From Scenedesmus sp. PABB004 (lineage: Eukaryota): a DNA stretch of 64,000 nt. Shown piece after piece: positions 48,855 through 63,900 of the stretch. The stretch's first letter is position 1; the number at the start of each line of letters is the position of its first letter. The stretch covers positions 496,001 to 560,000 of the forward strand of contig JABVCE010000003.1 of the NCBI GenBank assembly GCA_014905635.1. Direction: 5' to 3'. The position numbers were made by a program, and so were the translations under genes. Below the pieces are notes generated by a model. That model was not told the DNA's origin. It was given only the letters and a program-made list of their open reading frames with translations, and searched no databases.

Positions 48855-50141
48855 ATGGCGCTCCTGCGGCAGCGCCAGCCGTGCTCGCGGCGCGCCGCCG
48901 TGTCCTGCTCGGCGCAGGCGGTGCGCTTCCGGCCCTGCATCGACATCCACCAGGCGCGCGGCGCGGCGGTCGCCGCGGTGCGGGGCAGCGGTGCCGCCCG
49001 CCGCCGGCCGCCGCCCAGCGCGCGCCGCGCCGCTGCAGGGAAAGGTCAAGCAGATCGTGGGCTCGACGCTCAAGGACCTGCCGAGCAGCAGCAGCAGCGG
49101 CAGCAGCAGCGGGTGCGGCGGTCGGTCGCGCGGCGGCCGCGTCGGCGGCGCTTTTTGCTGCCGCCGCCGCCGGGGCCGCCCGCTCACGCCGCGCGGCGGC
49201 GGCGCAGGGGCGACCCCGCGGAGCTGCGCACCAACTTTGTGTCGGACAAGCCGTCGTCCTGGTTTGCCGAGCTCTACCGCCGCGACGCGCTGCCGGGCGG
49301 GCACGTGATCATGCTCGGCGCCGACGACGCGAGCCGGTGCGGCGCGGCGGCGCTGCAGCGCTGCCGCCTTTCCTTTGCAAGCCCCGCCCGCGCGCGCGCG
49401 GCGCCCGCCCGCCCACGCGGCGGCCGCCGCCGCCGGCGCCGCCGCGTGGCCCAGGCAAACGGCGCTCGAGGCGCTGCGCGCGTGGCCGGGCGGGCTGCAG
49501 CTCGGCGGCGGCGTGAGCACGAGCAACGCGGGCGACTACCTCGACGCGGGGGCGAGCCACGTCATCGTCACGTCGTTCGTCTTCCGGGAGGGCCGCTTCG
49601 ACGAGGAGCGGCTGGACGCGCTCGTCAAGCAGGTGGGCAAGGCGCGGCTCGTGCTCGACCTGAGCTGCCGGCGGCGCGGCGACGGGGGCTACTATGTGGT
49701 GACCGACCGCTGGCAGCGCTTCAGCAGCCTGCGCGTCGACGCGGCCACGCTCGAGGCGCTCGCGTCGCGGTGCGACGAGTTCCTGGTGCACGGCGTCGAC
49801 GTGGAGGGCATGCAGCTCGGCATCGACGACGACCTCGTGTCGCTGCTCGGCGAGGCGTCGCCCATCCCCGTGACCTACGCCGGCGGCGCGCGCACGCTGG
49901 TGCGGCGGCGGCGCGGGGGGGGGGGGGCCGCCGCGCGCGGGCGGCCCGCCCGCCCCCGTGCCGACGGCTGTGCCGCTCGCCCGCCCGCGCGCAGGAGGAC
50001 CTGGACCGCGTTGCCGCGGCGGGGCGGGGGCGCGTGGACATCACCGTGGGCAGCGCGCTGGACGTGTTTGGCGGGAAGCTGCCGTACGCCGACGTCGTGG
50101 CGTGGCACAAGGCCCAGGCGGCGCGCGCGGTCGCGGCGTGA
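48855..50141 (+). CDS. HISN3: ProFAR isomerase (His6/HisA eukaryote type), probably plastid-targeted
   Basis: Transit-peptide-like N-terminus, then [90 protein letters not shown]. Confidence 0.96.
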
Positions 50142-50432
50142 GCCCTCGGCAGCCGAGCGGGCGCGCGGCGGCGGCGCGTGCAAGAAAACCCCGCCGGGTC
50201 ACTGTGACCGAGGCCGTTCCTGCGGCGGTCCCCAGTCGCGCCGCCGATCAGCCGCCGCCACCGCCCGCGCCGCCGCTGCCGCCGCCGCCGCCCAGCAGAG
50301 CCAAGCGCTGCACGCCGCCGCGGCTCGGCCGGTCTGCGCCAGTCCGGCGGGCTCGCCTCCGCGGCACGGAGGCGCCGTGCCTGCGCCTTCTCGCAGCCAG
50401 CCGGGCCGCCAGCGGCGCCTGAGAACGCAGCA

Positions 50433-51096
50433 ATGGTGTTCATGGGCATCCACGGCGGGCCCTCGCGGTGAGGGCCGCTCGCGGCGCAGGGACGCGCTGT
50501 CAGGCGTGAAGGCGGTCTGCCTGGAGCCTCCGCCGCGCCGGCAGGGGCGGCGTGGGGCGCCGGGCGGCGGCAGAGATCGAGCGCGCATCGCGCGCCCCCC
50601 TCCCGCCGCGCCGCAGGTGCTACAACTTCTGGATGGACTTCCAGGAGGTGAGACAGCCGCTAGCGCCGCCCTGGGCGCGGGCCGCTGCCGCCGCGGCGGC
50701 GACGCGGGCCGGCATTTGCCCCGCGGCGCCGCCGCTGCTCGCTGCTGCCGCTCCCGCCGCCGCCGACCGCGCCGACCGCGCCTGCTGCTCGCCGCAGTGC
50801 ATGCACGAGAGCGCCACGGAGCCGCTCAAGTGCAAGGCGCTGGCCGACGACTACCTCGAGTGCCTGCACCACCGCAAATACGTGAGCAGCAGCGCTGCTG
50901 GGGAGCGCCCGCGCCCGCGCGCTCCCCAGGGGGACGCGGCCGCGGCGGCGGCAGCCGGCGGCGGCACTAGCGCGGCCACCGCAGCCGCTGACCGCGCCGC
51001 CGCCGCCGCGCGCAGTACGAGCGCCAGCTGACCATCGAGCGCGAGCGGAGGCGGCAAGAGGCCGAGGCAGCGGCGGGCGGCAAGGCCCACCACTGA
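50433..51096 (+). CDS. NDUFS5: Mitochondrial complex I 15-kDa subunit (twin CX9C)
   Basis: Four exons (introns 50468-50616, 50648-50797, 50882-51015) give [54 protein letters not shown]..., with two CX9C motifs and the typical DYLECLHH. Confidence 0.9.
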
Positions 51097-51305: not shown

Positions 51306-52789
51306 TCAGCTGGCCGCCCCGGGCGCGCCCCTGCCTACCGCGCTGCCCGCGCCCGCCTGGTCGCCGCCGCCGCCCGCCGCTCGCCCGGCGGCAGCGTCTG
51401 GTCGCCCGCCGGCGGCTTGCGCCATCTCGCGGATGCGCAGCGAAGCCAGGTGGTATTTGAGCTTCAGCGTCTCCAGCGCCGCGTCGCGTGCCGCGTGCGC
51501 CGCCTGCTGCTCCAGCAGCGCGGCGCGCTCGGCCGCGAGCGCGCGCTCCTTGTCCCGCAGGCGCACCTCGGTGGCGTGCCGCTGCCGCCGGTCGCGCGCG
51601 CCGACCGCGCGCAGCGCCTCGCTCGTCGACAGCAGCGCCTCGCGCAGCTCGTGCGAGCGGTGGGAGAGCGCGTGCCGGGCGCGCGCGTCCTGCTCGGTCG
51701 CGGCCGCCACGGCCGACGCCAGCTCCGCCGCGTCGGCCGTGGCCGCGGCGGCCGCGCCCTCAGCGTACAGCAGCGACTCGCGCATGGCCGCGTGCTCCGC
51801 CTGGCGCAGGCGGCGGCGGCATGCGCAGCGGCCGGGGCGCGAGGTCGGCTGACCGGCGGCGGCGGCAGCGTCACGGCGCGCGCCCGCACCGCCGCCGGCG
51901 TGCCTGCGCCGTTTGCAGCGCGTGTGAGGTGTTGTGCAGCTCCACCGCGAGCTCCTCCGCCTGCGACTGCAGCGCCGCAACGCGTGCCTGCTCCGCCGCG
52001 AGCGCGGCCACGGCGCTGGCCTGCAGGTCCGCCAGCTCCCGCTTGAGCGCCGCCTGCGCGCGCCGCGGCGGGCAGCGGCGCGTGAGCCTGCGGCCGCTGG
52101 CACCGCCGGTGGCGCCGCTGACCGAGCGGCGGCCAGCCAGCGCCGCCGGCGGCGGCTCACGCTCTCCGCCACGATCCCCGCCGTGTCGGCGCGGTGCTCC
52201 TCGTCCACGCGCACCACGAGGTCCACGATCCACTTGGTTTTCTGGCCCTCCTTCTGCGCGGCGCGGCAGCTGGCTCGGCTGCAGCAGCACGCTGCACGCG
52301 CCTGGCTGGCCAGCCAGGTGCCGGTCCTTGCCATGGCAGGCACCGGCGGCCGGGCTGGCCCTGCCGCGCGCGCACCGCGTTGGCGCCGGCGTGCTTCTGG
52401 ATGAGCGAGATGGCGCGCACGCGCTGCCTGCGGCGCCGCGGGCGGCGGCGCGGGGCGTCGGCCGCACCGCAAGCAGAGAGCACCCGCCCCGGCGCGACGG
52501 CGACGCACTTGGCTTTCTCCTTGCCCAGGCTGGGTCTGCCCTTGGGCCGACCGGGCTGCGGCGGCGCCGCTGCAGCGGCCTGCGGCGCGCGGCAGCGCTC
52601 GGGCCCGCCGCTGCGGCTGGGCCGCGCGGCACAGAGCGCGAGGAGGCGCGGCTGCTGGCTGACGGAGCGCACCTGGGGCACAGGGATGACCTCCGGCTGC
52701 TCCTGGGCGGCCTCTGGCGCCTGCTCCTGCTGCGCGCTCGCCGGCGCGCCCTGCTCCGCAGCCGCGGCGCCGGGCGCCGCGTCGCTCAT
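51306..52789 (-). CDS. Coiled-coil protein of unknown function with AT-hook-like GRPKGRP
   Basis: Multi-exon: MSDAAPG..., GRPKGRPSLGKEK, RVRAISLIQKH, KTKWIVDLVVRVDEEH, ALKRELADLQ...LETLKLKYHLASLRIREM heptads. Confidence 0.62.
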
Positions 52790-52928: not shown

Positions 52929-55900
52929 TCACTGCTGCTCTGACACGCGCGCGCGCCGCGCGCCGCCTCCCCCGCTCGACGATGGGCGGCCCGCCGGCGA
53001 CGCGCCGGCCTCGCCCCGCCCGGCGGCGCCGGCGCGCCGCTGCCCTGCCGCGACAGCGCGCCAGCCGTCGCGACCTGCTCACCGCCGCGTTGCAGCGCTG
53101 CCTGCGCCGCTGCGACCTGCAGCTGGCCAAGCACGTCGCCCCGCACCGCGCCGGGAGCGCCGCCGGCCCCCAGCCACCCACGCCGCCGCCCGCGCCCAGG
53201 CTGCGCCGCAGCGGGCTGGCGCTGCCGCTGCTGCCGCCCGCGGCGGCGCTGCCGTGCAGGAGCGGCGCGGCATCGTCGCCGCCGGCGCCGGCGCCGCTGC
53301 TGCCGCTGGCGGTCGCCGGCCGCCGGCCGAGCGGCGTGAGGCTCGCGAGCGAGCCGCGCAGCGGCGAGGCGGCGCCCGAGGGCGCGGCGCTGCCGCCGCC
53401 GCCCAGCGAGCCCAGGCGCGGGCTGTAAGGCAGGCCGCCGCCGCGCACCAGCGTGCGCGGCACCATGCTGCGCTTGGCGAGCGTGCTGGCCAGCGTGGGC
53501 TGCTCCGCACCGTCGCTGCTGCCAGTGGCGTGCTGCAGCCGCCCCACGCGCGCAACGCTCAGCAGCGCCTTGCCGCTGCCCGCGGAGCCGTCCTTGTTGG
53601 TGACCTGGCAGTGGTAGCTGCCCGCGTCGGCGGGCGCCACCTCCACCAGGACCAGCAGCGGCGAGGTCGAGGTGGCCACGGTGAGGCGTTTGCCGTCCTT
53701 GAACCACTGGTACCGCAGCGGGCCCAGGCCCTGCGCCGGCGGCGACGCGGGCGTGGGCGTGCGCACGCGCGGCGTGGCGCGGCGCGGCGTGCACCCCTGC
53801 GACCGCCCTCGCGCGCCGCACCGTGGCGGTGACGCTGAGCTGCGCGTTGGCGCCCTCGTCCACCGCGACGTCCGCCGGCTGCACCGTGACCAGCGGCCGC
53901 TGCGAGACCACGCCCTCGCGCACCGCCACCTCGCCGCCGCGCGCCTCCTGCGAGGCCGCCGCCGTGAGCACGGCCCGGCGGCGGCCCGGGCGGCGGCGCG
54001 CGCGCCGCGCCCGCAGCGTGCGCGCACCTGCAGGCGCGAGCGCGCGCGCTCCAGCACCACCGCCAGGCTGAGCTCTCGGTGCTGACGGGGCGCCGCGGCC
54101 GCGCGCCGGCCGGGCGCGGCCCGCCGCGGCGCCTCACCGCCGGGCGCGCCCGTCTGCAGCACGCTGTGCACGCGCACCTGCGGCGCGCGTGCGCGCGTGT
54201 GCGCGCGTGAGCCCCCGTCAGCGGAGCCCGTGGGCCCTGGAACCAGCGGGCACCGCTGCGACGCGCCGCCTCGGCGCGCGCCTTGACGCTGCCGCTGGTC
54301 TGGGTCTTGAAGCCGTACTTGTTGAGCGGCCCGCCCGCGTGCCCCGGCGGCACACCGACGTACGCCATGTCCGCGAGCTCCTCGCTGCCGCCGATGAAAA
54401 ACGCGGCCTGCTGGTCGCGCCGCGTGCCTGCGCCGGGCGCCAGCGCGGAGGGAGTCGGCCGTGCCGCGCGCCGAGCGCGCGCCCCGCAGCGCGCGCGCTG
54501 CGCGCGCGCGCCCGCGGCGCCGCACCCAGGGGCTTCCAGGTGTCCACGTAGTGCGTGCCGCTGCCGGGGCAGCGCCCGTCGAGCGACAGCCAGCCGTAGC
54601 CCTCGGTCGTGGCGCGGTCCCAGCCGTCGTAGGTGCAGACCTGCAGCAGCAACCGCGGCCACGCGCCCGGGCGCGGCGGCGCGCGCGCGACCCACTCCGC
54701 CTCGACCGGGTGCGCAAAGTGCGCCACCCAGAGCGCTGGCGTGTCGGAGGCGGGGTCCGGCGGGTAGCACGTCATCTGGCTCACGTGGCTCACGCCCTGC
54801 CCGGGCGGCGTAGGGTTTGGCCGGTTTAGTGGGGCGCGCGCGGGCGCGTGAGCGCGCGGCGCGCGGGCCGCGGCGACGGTGACGGCCCTGATCAGCCCCG
54901 GCGGCGCGGCCGCGCCTGGATGAGCCCCGGGCGGACCACCTCCTGCTCGCTGTGCTGCAGCGCCCAGGCGTCGGGGTCGTAGTGCAGCTGCCACTCCAGG
55001 AAGAGCCGGTCGCGCGTGAAGCCCGCCGCCGCGACGAGCTCGGCCATCAGCACCAGCCGCACCGCGCTGCCGTCGGGACCTGCCGCGGCGGGTCGACGCG
55101 GTGGGCCGCTGGCCGTCCCGCCGGCGCGCACAGCGCGGCGTGGCTGGCAGTGCGGCGCGCACCCGGCGGCGGCATGTGCTCCATGGCGCCGCCCGCGCGG
55201 CGCAGCTCCGCGGCCTGCGCCGCGACCGCGCCCGCGAGCTTGGCGGCGCGGCGCTCGAGGCAGGGCGCCGCGGCGCGCGACGCCAGCTCCACGGTGTACT
55301 CGTAGATGCCGCCTGCGCCCCGAGCGGGCCGCCCGCGCGGCGGGCGGCTCAGCCGGCGCCGCCAGCCGGCCCGGCCCGGCCGGCGGCCAGCCCGCGGAGA
55401 GGGCGCGCCGCGCACCGTGGTCGTCCTCGAAGCGGTGGCGCTGCCCCGGGGCGCTCAGGCCGGGCGTCATGTCAAACGTGCCGTCCTGGTGCGCGCGCAG
55501 CACGCACAGCACCTTTTCGCGGCTGCCCGCGACCGTCGTCTCGTCGCCGAGGTCGGCCATGAGGAACATGGCGTGGAAGTTGAGCATCTGCGGCGGGCGA
55601 CGCACACCGCGCGTCAGGCGGTCAGGCAGGCAGGCAGGCAGGCGGGCGGCGGGCGATCGGCGGCGGCCGGCGGCTCTGCTGCCGCGCCCGACCGCTGCCA
55701 GCGCAGCGGCGGGCGCGCGTCGCGCCGCGCCGCGCCTTCTGGCGGTTGCGGGGGTCGCGCAGGAGCTTGCGCGTGAGGTGGTTGCGCGCCTCGCCGTCGC
55801 TGCTGGTCGTGACACGGCGCTGCGTCTCGTAGCGCTCGCAGAACGCGTCCGTCTGCACATAGCTGAATAGCACCGAGTCCGACGGCGCCGACTGGCAGCC

Positions 55901-56625
55901 GCGGGCGGCGCGCGTGGGAGTGAGGGGCGGCCCGCGGCTGCAGCAGCCGCGCGCGCGCGTGCCCCGCGCCCCGGCGCACGAGCAGGCGGTCGGGGCCGAT
56001 GTGGGACTGCGAGCCAAAGTGCGCCGTGCGCTTGGGCGAGCTGCACTGGCTGCCGCGCGCCCGGCCGGCGCAGATCTGGGCCTGCGGGCGGCGGCGGCGA
56101 GGGTTGGCGGACGCGTCCCCGCGCGGCCGGCCGCCGCTGCGCGCCGCTGCCGCTGCCGTGCGCGCCGCGCGGACCTGCGCCGCCACCAGCTCCGCCTTGC
56201 TGTACACCTTTTCCTGCCACGCAAAGGTTTTGACCACCCTGAGCTGCTCCGGCCGCGCCTGCGGCCCGGCCGCGTCGCCACCGGCGCTGCCGGACGCGGG
56301 CGCGGCGTCCGCACGGCTGCTCGCTCCCGCATCGCTCGCCGGCGCCTGGGGCGTCTGTGAGACGCCGCACGGCGCCGCCAGGGCGGGCGCGGCGGTGCGG
56401 GGGCGCGGCGGCGAGCGGTCAACGCGGCGCTGCTGGCGTTGCCGCACCGCCGCCCCCCGCGCCGCGGCGCTGCGCCCGCCGCACGCCCGCCGCGCGCGCC
56501 ACCTGCTCCCGCGTCACCCCGGGCCGCGGCCTGGGCGCGCTGAGGCGCGTGAGCGTGACGCGGAGCTTGAGGTTGGCGAGCGGGTCCTGCGCCGCGACGT
56601 AGTGGACGGTGCGCAGCTCCTCCAT
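52929..56625 (-). CDS. MKS1: MKS1 (B9-C2 transition-zone protein) with an appended immunoglobulin-like domain
   Basis: QDPLANLKLRVTL, FAWQEK, FSYVQTD, MFLMADLG, AHFAHPVE, WPRLLLQVCTYDGWDRATTEGYG, TWKP, FFIGGSEEL, NKYGFKTQTSGSVKVR, VLERARSRLQEAR, followed by an Ig-like domain. The stop at 52929 assumes two 1-nt corrections (about 53170 and 53015). Confidence 0.9.
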
Positions 56626-56969: not shown

Positions 56970-58728
56970 ATGCGCCGCCGCGGCCTCCCGCCGCTGCTGC
57001 TGCTGGCGCTGCTCGCTGCTGCCGCGCACCGAGGGGCCGGGGGCGACCGCGAGGCGGACGCCCAGGACGAAGACTTCGTGGGCTGGCGGGGCGAGAGGTG
57101 GGCGCGCGCGATTCGGGGCGCCGCGGCCGGGAGCAGCAGCCGCTCAGCCCGCGCCGCCGCTCTCCCGGTCCGCGCCGCAGCTTCGAGCCGGCCGACACCT
57201 TTGCCGCGGACCCCAAGTCGCAGGAGAGCTGGGTGGAGCTCCTTTCTTGGGAGCCGCGCGCCTATTTGTGAGCGATCCGGGGGCCGCGCCGACCGACCGA
57301 GAGAGCGCAGCGGCGTGCAGCAACGTGCGGGCGCCGCCCCCTGCCTGACCCGACCTGGACCGCCGCGCCGCCGCCGCAGGTACCACGGCTTCGCCGCGCA
57401 CTGGGAGGCGGACCACCTGATCGAGCTGGTGCGCGCCGCGCCGCGCCGCGGCGCGCCGGCGGTTGCGACGGTTGGCAGCGGCGCCGCGCGGCGCACCCCG
57501 CGCGCACGCCCGCCCGCCCGCCCGCCCGCGCAGGCGCGGCCGCACGTCAAGAAGAGCGAGGTGGTGGACAGCGACACCGGGGAGTTCATGCTGAGCAAGG
57601 AGCGCACCAGCTCGGGCGCCTTCCTGCGCCGGGGGCAGACCGACGTCGTGGCGAGCCTCGAGCGCCGCCTCGCGGAGTGGACCATGCTGCCCGTGGAGAA
57701 CGGCGAGCCCTTCCACGTGAGCGCGCGGCGCCGAGCCCCGCTCCGCCCCGCGCCGCGCGCCAACCCGACCCGCCTCCGCCGTCTGCGCGCGCGCACGCAG
57801 ATCCTGCACTATCAGGAGGGCGAGGAGTACACGGTGTGTGCGCGGCGCCGCGCGCCCGCGGCAGCCCCGCGCGTGGCCGCCGGCGGCGCTGCCGGCGGCG
57901 GCGGCGCGCGCGCGTGGCGCGCCCAGCCGCCCGGCCCCCGCTCCCGTGCCTCCGTGCCTCGCAGCCGCACTTTGACTACTTTTTCGAGAGCAAGAACACG
58001 GAGAACGGCGGCCAGCGCATCGCGACCGCGCTGCTCTACCTGTCTGACGTCGACGAGGGTGCGCAGCGACCGACGCGCACTCGGCGCGCGGCGCGGCGCG
58101 CCCCGGCCCGGCCCGCGCGCGCGCGCGCCGCCCACGCGCTGCGCCGGCGGCCTGGCCCAGGCGGTGAGACGGTCTTTCCCGACAGCAAGAAGCGGCCCAC
58201 GGAGGAGGAGAAGGCCGGCTTCAGCGGTGCGCCGCACGACCGTCCCGCCGCCGCCGTTGGTTGCGGCCGCACGCTGCTCGTGCTGACGCCCCCGCCCCGT
58301 CGCCGCCGTCGCCGCCCCGGTTCCCCGCCTGCAGTGTGCGGGCAGGCGGGCCTGGCGGTCAAGCCGCGCAAGGGCGACTGCTTGCTCTTCTGGTCGCTGC
58401 GCCCCGACGGCGTGACCAAGGACACCTTCTCCCTGCACGCCGGCTGCCCCGTCTGCCCCAGCGGGCAGGAGGCGGGCAAAAAGTGCAACAAGTGGTCGGC
58501 GACCAAGGTGCGGCTGCCCCGCCGGCCCGCACCGCCGCCGCGCCCGCGCAGCGCCTGCCGTGCCCGCCCCGGCCCGGCGCCGCCGCTGCGGCCGCCCGCG
58601 CGCCCGCGCGCGGCGCCGCGCCTCGGAGCTCACGCCGCCCGCACGCCCGCCCGCTCGCTGCCGGCGCCTCGGCGGCCCAGTGGATCCGCGTCGGCGAGCA
58701 CAAGGACTGGGGCGGGCCCGACGCGTGA
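56970..58728 (+). CDS. P4H: Prolyl 4-hydroxylase (2OG-Fe(II) dioxygenase), secretory pathway
   Basis: Signal/anchor sequence, VELLSWEPRAYLYHGF, ERTSSGAFL, ENGEPFH|ILHY, PHFDYF (HxD), GGQRIATALLYLSDVDE|GGETVFP, LAVKPRKGDCLLFWS, SLHAGCPV, KWSATK|WI. Confidence 0.96.
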
Positions 58729-58782
58729 CGGCGCCGCACGTAACACCCCCGGCTCCCCAACTCGCACGCCGCGGCGCGCCGC

Positions 58783-60446: not shown

Positions 60447-60902
60447 AGAGCCTCCGCGGCCAGCGGTCAGCGCAGCGCGCGTGGCCTCGCGCCGGGCCGC
60501 TCGGCGGTCAGCGCAGCGCGCGCGAGCTGTCGCGCAGGTGCCGGCGGCGCGCTGCGCGTGTGCTGGTGCAGGGCAACAAAAGTCTGGGGCCGGCGGGGGG
60601 CTGGTGCTCATCAAGTGCCTCGGGGAGCGGGAGGGCCGGTCTTGCCCGCCGCAGGCCTGAAGCGGCCGCGGCCCCCGGCGCTCGCCCACGACACCGCCAC
60701 GGCAAGAGCGCTTCTCGGAGGCACAGCAGCCTGCCCGCCCGGCGCCGCATGCGCCAGGCCCACGCCGCCCAGCGCGCGCCGCGCGCCCTGCGCAACGTGC
60801 GGGCCGCCTGCGACGCTGGGGCGCGTTGATCATCGATCGGTGCACTACCTGAGGCGCAGGCGCTGAACGGCGTCGCGGCGCGGCGAGCAGCAGCAGCGCG
60901 AG

Positions 60903-63900
60903 ATGGAGGGCCAGCCTCCCGGCGCGCCCGGCGCCCCCCAGGGCGCGCCGCTCTGGGCGCCGCCTGACGCGGGCACGGTGCCCCTTCCGGGCCCGCCGCC
61001 GGCGGGCAACGGCTTTGCGCCGGCGCCGCTGGGCGCCGAGTTTGCGGGCGCGCAGCTCGGGGGCGTGCCCCCGGGCCTGAAGCTCGAGGACGGCCCGCCC
61101 GGCCCGCCGGGCCTGCCGGGCCCGCCGGGCGCGCCGCCGGCCGGCGGCGTCGCGGCGGCGATGCTCGCGGCGGCAGCAGCGGCGGCGCCGGGCGCGGCGC
61201 TCGTGCCGGGCGGCGGCGGCGGCGGCGCCGACGCCGGCGGCCTGGTGCTGCCGCCGCACCCGCTGCAGCAGGGCTTCGTTCTGCCGCCGCACCCGCTCAT
61301 GCAGAAGGGCTTCGTGCTGCCGCCGCACCCGCTCATGCTCCCGCCGCCGGGCGCGCCGGGCGCGCCGGCGCCCGAGCCGGCGGCGCCGCCGGCGCCCGCG
61401 GAGCCGCGCAAGCGGCGCCACAAGTGGGGCCCGCCCGCGGCTGGCGACTGGGGCGACGACGAGGGCAAGCCCAAGAAGCGGCGCAGCCGCTGGGAGTCGA
61501 ACGACACGCAGATCGTGCCCATGTCCAACTCGGGCGCGATCATCATCCCCGGCCAGCTGCCCAAGGAGGTCACCGTCTGCGGCGGCCTCAAGGTGCGGCG
61601 CGGTCGTGGCGGCGGCGCCGGCCGCGGTCGCGCAGGCCTGCCCGCGCGCCCGCAGCCCCCAGCGCCGCGCCGCGCCCCCGCCGGCGGCCGCGCCTCACGC
61701 CCCCCCCCCCCCCCCCCCCCGCGCCCGCCCCAGATCGTGCTGGCCAACCCCGGGTCGGTGTGCGCGTCGAACGACCCCAAGGTGCTCGCGATGCACGAGC
61801 AGCTGAACGAGATCCACCGCAAGATCCTCAGCGGCCAGCTCGACATCCCGCCCGAGCACGAGCGCAGCCCCAGCCCGCCGCCGACGTACGACGCGCACGG
61901 CAACCGCACCAACACGCGCGAGATTCGGTGCGGCGCGCGCGCGCGGCGGCGGGCTGCTGCGCAGCGGCGGCGGCGGCAGGCGCGCGCGGCACGCCCCGCG
62001 CTGCGCGCGCCCCGGCTGCTCACCGCCCCGCCTGTGCGCGCGGCCCACCGCGCGCAGCACGCGCGAGAAGCTCATGGAGCGGCGCAACCGGCTGATCGAG
62101 GACATCCTGAAGCACGACCCCACCTACCACCCGCCCTCGGACTACAAGCCGCGCAAGCTCGTCAACAAGGCGCGTGCCCGCGGCACGCGCGCCGCCGCGC
62201 CGCGCCTTGCCACGCACGCTCTGATGTGCCTTGCCTGATCTCCATCCCATCTGATCTAGCCTCATCTCATCTGATCTAGCCTCATCTAATCTCTCTGTCT
62301 GTCACCGCCGGGCGCAGGTGTACATCCCGCTAAACGAGTACCCGGGCTACAACTTCATCGGCCTCATCATCGGCCCTCGCGGCAACACGCAGAAGCGCAT
62401 GCAGCGCGAGACCAACTGCAAGATCGCGATCCGCGGCAAGGGCAGCGTCAAGGAGGGCGCGGGGCGCGACATGAAGTACGACTACGGCGAGGACGACGAG
62501 CTGCACGTGCTCATCACCGCAGAGTGCCAGGAGGACGTGAGCGCGCCGCGCGCGGGCGGGAAGGGGCGGGGGCGGGCCGGGGCGGCTGCAGGCGGGCAGG
62601 GCGCAGCTGCTGGCAGCGCGCGCCGCCGCGCGGGGGCCCGCCGCCGCGCCCCGCATCACCCGCCCCCGCCCTGCGTCGTCTCACCCGCGCCCGCGCGCCC
62701 CCGCGCCCCCGCCCGCGCGCCGCGCCGGCGCAGCTGGACCGCGCGACGGCGATGATTGAGAAGCTCTGCACGCCCGAGGACGACGAGCACAACATGCACA
62801 AGCAGCTGCAGCTCCGCGAGCTCGCCGCGCTCAACGGCACGCTCAAGGACATCTCCGCCTGCTACATCTGCGGCGAGCCCGGCCACGAGGCGGAGCACTG
62901 CCCCAAGAAGGCGCGCGCCCGCGCCCGCCGCCGCCGCCGCGCCGCCGCGCCGCGCGCGCGCCCGCCACCTTGCGCCCGCGCCCGCCACCTCGCGCCCGCG
63001 CCACCTCGCGCCCGCGCCGCCGCGCCCGCGCCGCCGCGCCCACCACCTCGCACCCACCCCGTGTCGCACCGACCGCGCGTCGCGCCCGCTGCCGCTGCGT
63101 CGCGTCGCGCGCAGGCGGCGGACGTGTACAAGCTCCCCGAGCAGATGCTGACCAAGGTTCAGGAGCAGTACGAGCGCGACGTCGCGCGCGTGCACGGCGG
63201 CCCCGTCGTGAGCATGGACGCCGAGTACAAGTCCTTCCTCGCGGAGCTCGGCGGCGGCCCGCCCCCGGAGCTCATGGGCCTCGACCCGCTCACCGGTGCG
63301 CGCGCGTGTGGGGTGGGGGCGTGGGTGGGGGGTATGGGTGAGGAGGGCCAGGGCTTGGGCGCGGCGCTTGGGCCGACGCGGCCGCGTGCGCGGCGCGCCG
63401 CCGGCCCCGCCGCCGACCCCGCTGCCGCGCGCCCCGCCGCCGCGCGCCCCGCCGCCGCCGCAGGGCTGCCGCCCAAGACGGCGGGCGACCTGCCGGACGA
63501 GTGCAAGCTCTTTGTGAGCAACCTGCCGCCCGCGTACAACAGCGACATGCTGCGCCAGCTCTTTGAGCCCCACGCGCCCGTCGTGCACGCCGCGGTCATC
63601 ACCGAGCCCGGCAGCGGCGTGAGCCGGGGCTACGGCTTCATCCACATACCAGACGCGACCACGGTGCGGGCCCGCGCGCACGCGCAGGGCCCTGGCCGCC
63701 CCGCGCCGCGCGCCGCGCCGCGCCGCGCCGCGCCGCCCGCCGCGCCGCGCGCCGCGCCGCCCTCCGCGCGCCGCGCGGCCCGGCCTCGCCCGTGCGCCCG
63801 CCGACCCGCGCGCCGACCCGCCGACCCGCCCGCCCGCCCGCCTGCCCGGCTGCCGCCCCCGCGCTGCAGGCGCGCGCGACGCGGCAGCTGATGGACGGCA

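What the first reader, a model, noticed from the sequence alone, without database searches (positions are those of the whole stretch)
53555..54075. MKS1 fused to a C-terminal immunoglobulin (I-set/Ig_3-like) domain
Seen: directly after the canonical MKS1 end (VLERARSRLQ|EAR) the frame continues into RPLVTVQPADVAVDEGANAQLSVTAT|GLGPLRYQWFKDGKRL...LVLVEVAPADAGSYHCQVTNKDGSAGSGKALLSV, with the YQW-x-KDG and D-x-G-x-Y-x-C Ig hallmarks. The B-strand Cys is missing, as in many bacterial Ig-like repeats, and the domain contains an intron (about 53733-53820). The MKS1 proteins I know consist only of C2/B9 regions. Inference: a lineage-specific fusion, possibly of a horizontally acquired domain, adding an interaction module at the transition zone.
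Basis: partly seen in the sequence, partly recalled or inferred. Interest (0 to 1): 0.74.

Follow-up and report, generated by a model that had tools for sequence, protein, structure and literature searches.

The report
Green-algal MKS1 carries an immunoglobulin domain
The ciliary gate protein MKS1 of this green alga really does carry an immunoglobulin-type domain, but this is the usual green-algal form, Chlamydomonas included, and the remnant of an older tail of several such domains plus calcium-binding EF-hands.

Summary
MKS1 (minus strand, start 56625) continues past its conserved end helix into one I-set Ig domain split by a 91-nt intron. It is not species-specific. The fusion is in 16 of 20 green-side MKS1 rows and 0 of 4 outgroup rows, and in 13 of 13 core-chlorophyte rows, including Chlamydomonas reinhardtii CHLRE_12g495350. 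Transcript-derived proteins of Tetraselmis and Nephroselmis carry core and Ig together. Mesostigma, Nephroselmis and [Myrmecia] bisecta have 2, 4 and 7 Ig repeats followed by a homologous EF-hand block, so the tail predates the chlorophyte/streptophyte split; this genome keeps only the first Ig. That Ig is about as conserved as B9 (49% vs 53%; tail 25%) and has a lineage-specific Lys-Asp hairpin, which suggests a binding site. Its closest sequences are bacterial repeat proteins, but no donor can be assigned and animal MALT1 Ig2 fits the fold as well. Ten literature searches found no description; one paper says B9 proteins as a rule carry no other domains. Verdict: an ancient, apparently undescribed variant, testable in Chlamydomonas.

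The parts
52929..56625 (-). MKS1 gene, from the annotated ATG to the inferred stop
   Evidence: P0001 residue 1 maps to 56625. The frame ending at TGA 52931-52929 matches the C-termini of the Tetradesmus and Hariotina orthologues. The splice into that last frame is inferred, not shown.
54526..54796 (-). Central exon of the B9-C2 domain
   Evidence: Pfam PF07162, E 9e-12
54282..54425 (-). Last B9-C2 exon
   Evidence: PF07162 positions 122-160, E 0.0017
54028..54069 (-). Conserved MKS1 end helix, 5' part (it finishes in the next exon)
   Evidence: 70% mean pairwise identity in 9 orthologues; helix in the model; aligns with insect MKS1 ends
53948..54027 (-). Phase-0 intron, 80 nt, GT-AG
53903..53938 (-). 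Conserved 12-residue linker ahead of the Ig, with an invariant Arg
   Evidence: also recognisable in Tetraselmis and Nephroselmis
53822..53896 (-). Ig domain, first exon (strands A, A', B; Val at the usual B-strand Cys position)
53731..53821 (-). Phase-0 intron inside the Ig, 91 nt, GT-AG
   Evidence: An older Chlamydomonas model (P0170) and an Enallax transcript (P0167) break at the same residue, which suggests a shared intron position (inference).
53554..53730 (-). Ig domain, second exon (strands C to G, with the Trp, Tyr-x-Cys and Asn-Lys-Asp-Gly hairpin)
   Evidence: Pfam Ig_2, Ig_3 and I-set; pLDDT 92-96 in an orthologue model
53590..53595 (-). Lys564-Asp565 of the F-G hairpin, candidate binding determinant
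   Evidence: 9 of 9 single-Ig orthologues, against 1% and 3% of 2859 non-MKS1 repeats and 5% and 16% of 19 other green repeats
52929..53553 (-). Gly/Ala/Ser-rich tail, predicted disordered, in place of the ancestral further Ig repeats and EF-hands
   Evidence: 25% mean pairwise identity; pLDDT under 50 in orthologue models

Best explanation
This is the organism's ordinary, vertically inherited MKS1 in its green-plant form. In the green-plant ancestor MKS1 gained a tail of tandem I-set Ig repeats ending in EF-hands. Ulvophyceae and Chlorophyceae, as sampled, kept only the first Ig, followed by a disordered tail. Shown: the fusion, its distribution, its fold and its conservation. From established knowledge: the B9 core sits with B9D1 and B9D2 between the ciliary membrane and the doublets. 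Inferred: the Ig is cytosolic, without the canonical disulfide, hangs from the end helix on a flexible joint, and binds a chlorophyte transition-zone partner through its F-G hairpin. It would act as a docking site rather than a spacer. The partner is unknown.
For: Distribution. Core and Ig lie in one transcript-derived ORF in Tetraselmis and Nephroselmis. The Ig-plus-EF-hand tail is homologous between Mesostigma and Nephroselmis (36% over 406 columns, E 6e-62). The core tree follows expected algal groups, with this gene beside Tetradesmus, Hariotina and Enallax (SH-aLRT 99). Ig identity is 49% against B9 53% and tail 25%. Lys564 and Asp565 are specific to the retained repeat. I-set fold: Z 14.2, rmsd 1.6 A over 84 residues. 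Volvox and Chlamydomonas have insertions between helix and linker, which suggests a flexible joint. B9D1- and B9D2-like genes are present in G000. MKS1 is in Chlamydomonas transition-zone remnants (PMC4888484, passages).
Against: No partner, localisation or mutant data exist for the domain. Most invariant Ig residues are structural and shared with bacterial repeats, so folding alone explains much of the conservation. Four of 20 green-side rows lack any Ig, including a complete Pyramimonas transcript, so the domain is dispensable in some flagellated green algae. That the hairpin is surface-exposed is inferred from the I-set fold, not measured on the model.
Confidence: 0.55

Rival explanations
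1. The single Ig is a remnant of the ancestral array, kept as a folded spacer or cap for the end helix with no specific partner.
For: Most invariant positions are fold positions. The rest of the array and the EF-hands are gone here, and the Ig is absent in 4 of 20 green-side rows.
Against: It is always the first repeat that is kept, in 13 of 13 core-chlorophyte rows, at near-B9 conservation, with a fixed Lys-Asp pair that other repeats lack.
Confidence: 0.3
2. The Ig and EF-hand tail builds the stellate structure inside the green-plant transition zone.
For: Both are green-plant features, and the stellate fibre contains the EF-hand protein centrin (PMC4888484, passages).
Against: Mosses and ferns keep the stellate pattern but lack all known transition-zone complex proteins (PMC4092220, passages). 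MKS-module proteins lie outside the doublets in other organisms (PMC5424270, passages).
Confidence: 0.05
3. Origin rival: the repeats come from an old eukaryotic short-loop Ig of the MALT1 kind rather than from bacteria.
For: The top structural matches are MALT1 Ig chains (Z 14.2 and 14.1), tied with titin domains and a phage chain. The F-strand Cys is in 9 of 9 single-Ig and 84% of 19 other green repeats but 22% of 2859 non-MKS1 repeats. The green repeats do not nest in any bacterial group.
Against: The best per-domain sequence score is 53 bits to a bacterial-type repeat against 28.7 bits to titin. That comparison is biased, because the bacterial set was picked by similarity. The named sources of such repeats were bacteria plus one archaeon. 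Loop spacing is 24 in 1403 of 1805 repeats and in most green array repeats.
Confidence: 0.4
4. Gene-model artefact, or a recent species-specific transfer or contamination.
For: The public model P0001 probably does read through into the next gene further downstream.
Against: The same junction is present across several green classes and in transcript-derived proteins. The Ig has host codon bias and an intron.
Confidence: 0.02

Closest known systems
MKS1 of animals and a stramenopile (B9D1-B9D2-MKS1 complex)
   Same: B9-C2 domain, N-terminal motifs and end helix; separate B9D1- and B9D2-like genes in G000
   Different: Human MKS1 is listed as B9-C2 only, and B9 proteins are said to have, as a rule, no other domains (PMC3495828, passages). 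The insect and MAST-4 rows have no Ig.
Chlamydomonas reinhardtii CHLRE_12g495350 (P0041)
   Same: Same B9 + linker + single Ig + low-complexity tail; Ig 45% identical. UniRef auto-names it 'Ig-like domain-containing protein'.
   Different: Longer N-terminal insert and an insertion between helix and linker. The gene id was not found in the searched literature.
MKS1 of Mesostigma, Nephroselmis and [Myrmecia] bisecta
   Same: MKS1 core followed by the same kind of Ig repeat
   Different: They carry 2, 4 and 7 repeats plus an EF-hand block. Tetraselmis and Cymbomonas have 3 repeats and no EF-hands. This genome has one repeat.
Bacterial tandem Ig_3/I-set repeat proteins (Verrucomicrobiota, Bacteroidota) and phage Ig-like tail or capsid proteins
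   Same: Closest sequences found, 31-43% identity, same short loop
   Different: Long arrays, at least one with a secretion-system sorting domain, mostly without the F-strand Cys and without the Lys-Asp hairpin
Intracellular animal Ig domains (MALT1 Ig2, titin, MLCK)
   Same: Same fold, Z 13-14, rmsd 1.5-2 A for the top rows; their scaffold or spacer role is recalled
   Different: 18-30% identity among the top rows; no ciliary context
NPHP4 and NPHP1 accessory domains
   Same: Transition-zone C2 proteins that gain Ig or EF-hand domains in particular lineages (PMC3495828, passages), a parallel case
   Different: Different proteins; that paper excludes B9 proteins from such accretion

Membership tests
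MKS1 orthologues | B9-C2 domain | tested here: met
   PF07162, E 1e-27, residues 252-430
MKS1 orthologues | Long N-terminal region and end helix, unlike the short B9D1 and B9D2; separate paralogues present | tested here: met
   Aligns with insect proteins named MKS1 (E 1e-11 for the Tetradesmus orthologue). Three other B9 loci exist in G000; their B9D1/B9D2 labels were assigned by eye from recalled motifs.
MKS1 orthologues | Transition-zone localisation in a complex with B9D1 and B9D2 | not testable with these tools
   Reported for MKS1 in Chlamydomonas remnants (PMC4888484) and for the mammalian complex (PMC12807484); not shown for this species
I-set immunoglobulin domain | Profile match above the curated cut-off | tested here: met
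   I-set 39.8 bits against 23.7; Ig_3 42.6 against 30
I-set immunoglobulin domain | Ig beta-sandwich fold | tested here: met
   Orthologue P0008 model, pLDDT 92-96; Z 14.2, rmsd 1.6 A, 84 aligned
I-set immunoglobulin domain | Canonical B-F disulfide | tested here: not met
   One Cys only in this domain. By eye, [Myrmecia] repeat 1 keeps a B-strand Cys. Many intracellular I-set domains also lack it (recalled), so this does not exclude the fold family.
Bacteria-to-eukaryote transferred domain | Nesting within a bacterial clade with support | tested here: inconclusive
   87 columns, 47 of 74 inner branches unresolved; 26 of 28 green repeats lie apart from all 50 other repeats. One green clade is not rejected, p-AU 0.98. 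No animal or protist Ig was in the tree.
Bacteria-to-eukaryote transferred domain | Absence from other eukaryote lineages | not tested
   Only 4 outgroup MKS1 rows were seen; glaucophytes, cryptophytes, haptophytes and Prasinodermophyta were not sampled

The most novel reading that the evidence does not exclude
The green-plant ancestor built a calcium-responsive, titin-like strut onto MKS1 from bacterial surface-protein Ig repeats. Up to seven repeats reach from the membrane-side MKS module toward the doublets and end in EF-hands, coupling the ciliary gate to calcium signals such as those that trigger deflagellation. The single Ig of Chlamydomonas and this alga is the surviving anchor and binds a green-specific transition-zone protein that has not been identified.
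Probability: 0.18. Interest if true: 0.75.

Novelty: new variant of a known kind. Interest (0 to 1): 0.48.

Why it matters
Chlamydomonas is the main model for transition-zone structure, and its MKS1 differs from the human protein by a folded, conserved domain that the searched literature does not mention. It is an exception to the printed generalisation that B9 proteins carry no other domains. I-set domains are rare in plants: a 446-genome survey lists 2 I-set combinations in algae, none in land plants, and a loss at an early streptophyte node (PMC13069868, Tables S3 and S4). Only one I-set match was found in G000. The ancestral Ig-array-plus-EF-hand form offers a candidate link between the gate and calcium, and a candidate density for tomograms of algal transition zones. 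For this genome alone the feature is ordinary inheritance.

Tried and rejected
RNA evidence for this species: no RNA holder was listed, so no reads were laid. Complex prediction of the Ig against the MKS1 core (P0008 residues 308-410 vs 40-307): no verdict, score 0.32 against a mark of 0.34. The first fold (7 sequences, pLDDT 39) and its Foldseek search were uninformative. Viral-contig scan with the half Ig: 135 pattern matches, none confirmed. The ancestral EF-hand block was not found in G000 with this query, 0 of 3 candidates. ESM Atlas hits were all under 0.9 and are leads only. In the Ig tree I labelled 5 rows 'animtype' from their two Cys and longer loop; one is from a Bacteroides contig and the others look alike, so the label was wrong and the tree holds no known animal sequence. 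The careful tree did not finish; quick trees were used. The stellate-structure idea was rejected on PMC4092220. Literature searches found no description of the fusion. Subscription journals are not covered, Zhang and Aravind 2010 (Gene) was not available, and one supplement of PMC9271036 was unreadable; either could mention it. Earlier scan findings were not available.

Full report
Observation. The window is about 80% GC and holds an intron-rich gene on the minus strand from 56625. Its exons hit Pfam B9-C2. After the conserved end helix, an 80-nt intron (54027-53948), a 126-nt exon, a 91-nt intron (53821-53731) and an exon from 53730 give an open frame identical to residues 427-628 of the public gene model P0001. 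That model has B9-C2 at 252-430 (E 1e-27) and Ig_3/I-set at 494-568 (E 9e-11 and 5e-10). The second Ig exon scores alone (E about 1e-5). The Ig exons have the host's codon bias (third-position GC 1.00 and 0.97, against 0.98 in a B9 exon). The Ig is followed by a low-complexity tail. A frame ending at TGA 52931-52929 matches the C-termini of two orthologues, so P0001 probably reads through into the next gene. No transcript of this species was seen.

Identity. G000 has four B9-C2 loci. Three are short B9D1- or B9D2-like genes, labelled by eye. This one has the long N-terminal region and end helix of MKS1. Searches for I-set and Ig_3 in G000 each found 1 candidate, this locus; those counts are lower bounds.

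Distribution. Pfam scans show B9 plus Ig in Tetradesmus, Hariotina (first Ig part missing from the model), Volvox africanus, Chlamydomonas reinhardtii, Chlamydomonas sp. UWO 241, Haematococcus, Sanguina, Bryopsis, Tetraselmis, [Myrmecia] bisecta, Cymbomonas, Nephroselmis and Mesostigma. I built a core-only tree of 24 rows, one per taxon, leaving out duplicates, alternative models and fragments. In it 16 of 20 rows on the green side carry an Ig, counting the partial Ig of Hariotina and Enallax, and 0 of 4 outgroup rows do (two insects, MAST-4, one unnamed). All 13 core-chlorophyte rows carry it. The 4 green-side rows without it are Pyramimonas obovata (complete transcript), its unnamed sister P0194, and unnamed P0181 and P0182; P0182 keeps EF-hands and has PHD fingers. 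The window's gene groups with Tetradesmus, Hariotina and Enallax (SH-aLRT 99). Core and Ig lie in one transcript-derived ORF in Tetraselmis and Nephroselmis, and partly in Enallax.

Ancestral form. Mesostigma has 2 repeats, Nephroselmis 4 and [Myrmecia] 7, each followed by EF-hands; Tetraselmis and Cymbomonas have 3 repeats without them. The last repeats and EF block align between Mesostigma and Nephroselmis at 36% over 406 columns (E 6e-62). By eye against the recalled loop pattern, 4 of 4, 3 of 4 and 2 of 4 EF loops look able to bind calcium in Nephroselmis, Mesostigma and [Myrmecia]. The simplest reading is one gain before the chlorophyte/streptophyte split, followed by losses and by reduction to the first repeat in Ulvophyceae and Chlorophyceae. 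The tree needs three changes and cannot itself tell gain from loss. A plant domain survey fits this: it lists I-set as lost at node N9, an early streptophyte node, with 2 combinations in algae and 0 in land plants, and never mentions it in the text (PMC13069868; passages, supplement search and part 1 of Table S4).

Constraint and fold. Among 9 single-Ig orthologues, mean pairwise identity is 53% for B9, 70% for the end helix, 49% for the Ig and 25% for the tail. Most invariant Ig residues are shared with bacterial repeats. Lys564 and Asp565 in the F-G hairpin are not: 9 of 9 here, 1% and 3% of 2859 non-MKS1 repeats, 5% and 16% of 19 other green repeats. An AlphaFold2 model of orthologue P0008 (20 sequences) folds the Ig at pLDDT 92-96. 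It matches MALT1 Ig2 (Z 14.2, rmsd 1.6 A, 84 residues), tied with titin domains and a phage chain. Insertions in Volvox and Chlamydomonas fall between helix and linker, which suggests a flexible joint.

Origin. The top hits among 1.84 billion representatives are mostly long multi-Ig proteins. Those with named sources, and loci found with one of them, are bacterial, mainly Verrucomicrobiota and Bacteroidota, plus one archaeon. The best per-domain score for the Bryopsis Ig is 53 bits in that set against 28.7 for titin; the comparison favours the bacterial set, which was chosen by similarity. Phage tail proteins match the half domain at 44-49%. Against a firm transfer claim: green repeats keep an F-strand Cys found in only 22% of the other repeats; they do not nest in any bacterial group (26 of 28 apart, most branches unresolved); one green clade is not rejected (p-AU 0.98); MALT1 shows that animals have a domain of similar size and fold; and no eukaryotic Ig was in my tree. 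I put an ancient bacterial origin at about 60%.

Mechanism. Established: B9D1, B9D2 and MKS1 form a non-membrane subcomplex between axoneme and membrane that anchors TMEM67 (PMC12807484 and PMC5424270, passages), and MKS1 is in Chlamydomonas transition-zone remnants (PMC4888484, passages). Inferred: the Ig is cytosolic and presents its hairpin to a chlorophyte-specific partner (0.55). The main rival is a spacer or remnant (0.3). A role in the stellate structure is unlikely, since mosses and ferns keep that structure without these complexes (PMC4092220, passages). The array with EF-hands could act as a calcium-tipped strut; seven repeats would span about 30 nm, using a recalled 4-4.5 nm per domain. 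That is speculative.

Novelty. Zhang and Aravind state that B9-C2 proteins as a rule have no other domains, while noting Ig and EF-hand gains in NPHP4 and NPHP1 (PMC3495828, passages). Ten library searches found no account of the fusion; of PMC3179463 I saw only the listing, and of PMC9271036 only a supplement search. Databases do auto-label the Chlamydomonas and Tetradesmus proteins as Ig-like. Verdict: a real, ancient, green-plant variant of a known protein, not special to this genome, apparently undescribed and directly testable. Interest 0.48.

Noticed in passing
window 52929-53180 and 52789, minus strand: The true MKS1 stop is probably TGA 52931-52929. Public model P0001 instead splices into the next, coiled-coil gene (ATG near 52789). 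Two Tetradesmus models (P0002, P0004) make the same join, which suggests conserved gene order and a shared annotation read-through.
   Followed up: partly
L082 (G000:C76:1442058-1442551): A fourth B9-C2 gene, B9D2-like by eye, besides MKS1, B9D1 and B9D2; three is the usual number.
   Followed up: partly
window 54281, 54914, 55735, minus strand: Three MKS1 introns appear to use GC donors. P0001 lacks short conserved stretches next to these sites and omits a conserved exon near 55890-55736.
   Followed up: no
P0182 (unnamed ENA/JGI protein): A green-side MKS1 with PHD fingers and the EF-hand block but no Ig repeats.
   Followed up: partly
P0023 and P0192 C-termini: A short conserved basic motif follows the EF-hands in [Myrmecia] and Nephroselmis MKS1; function unexplored.
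   Followed up: no
window 56970-58730, plus strand: A divergently transcribed gene that looks like a secreted prolyl 4-hydroxylase (by eye, recalled motifs) starts about 350 bases from the MKS1 start.
   Followed up: no
window 49300-50250 minus, 50500-50890 plus, 60870-62280 plus: By eye from the ORF list: a HisA/His6-like isomerase, a small twin-Cys mitochondrial protein and a splicing-factor-1-like gene.
   Followed up: no
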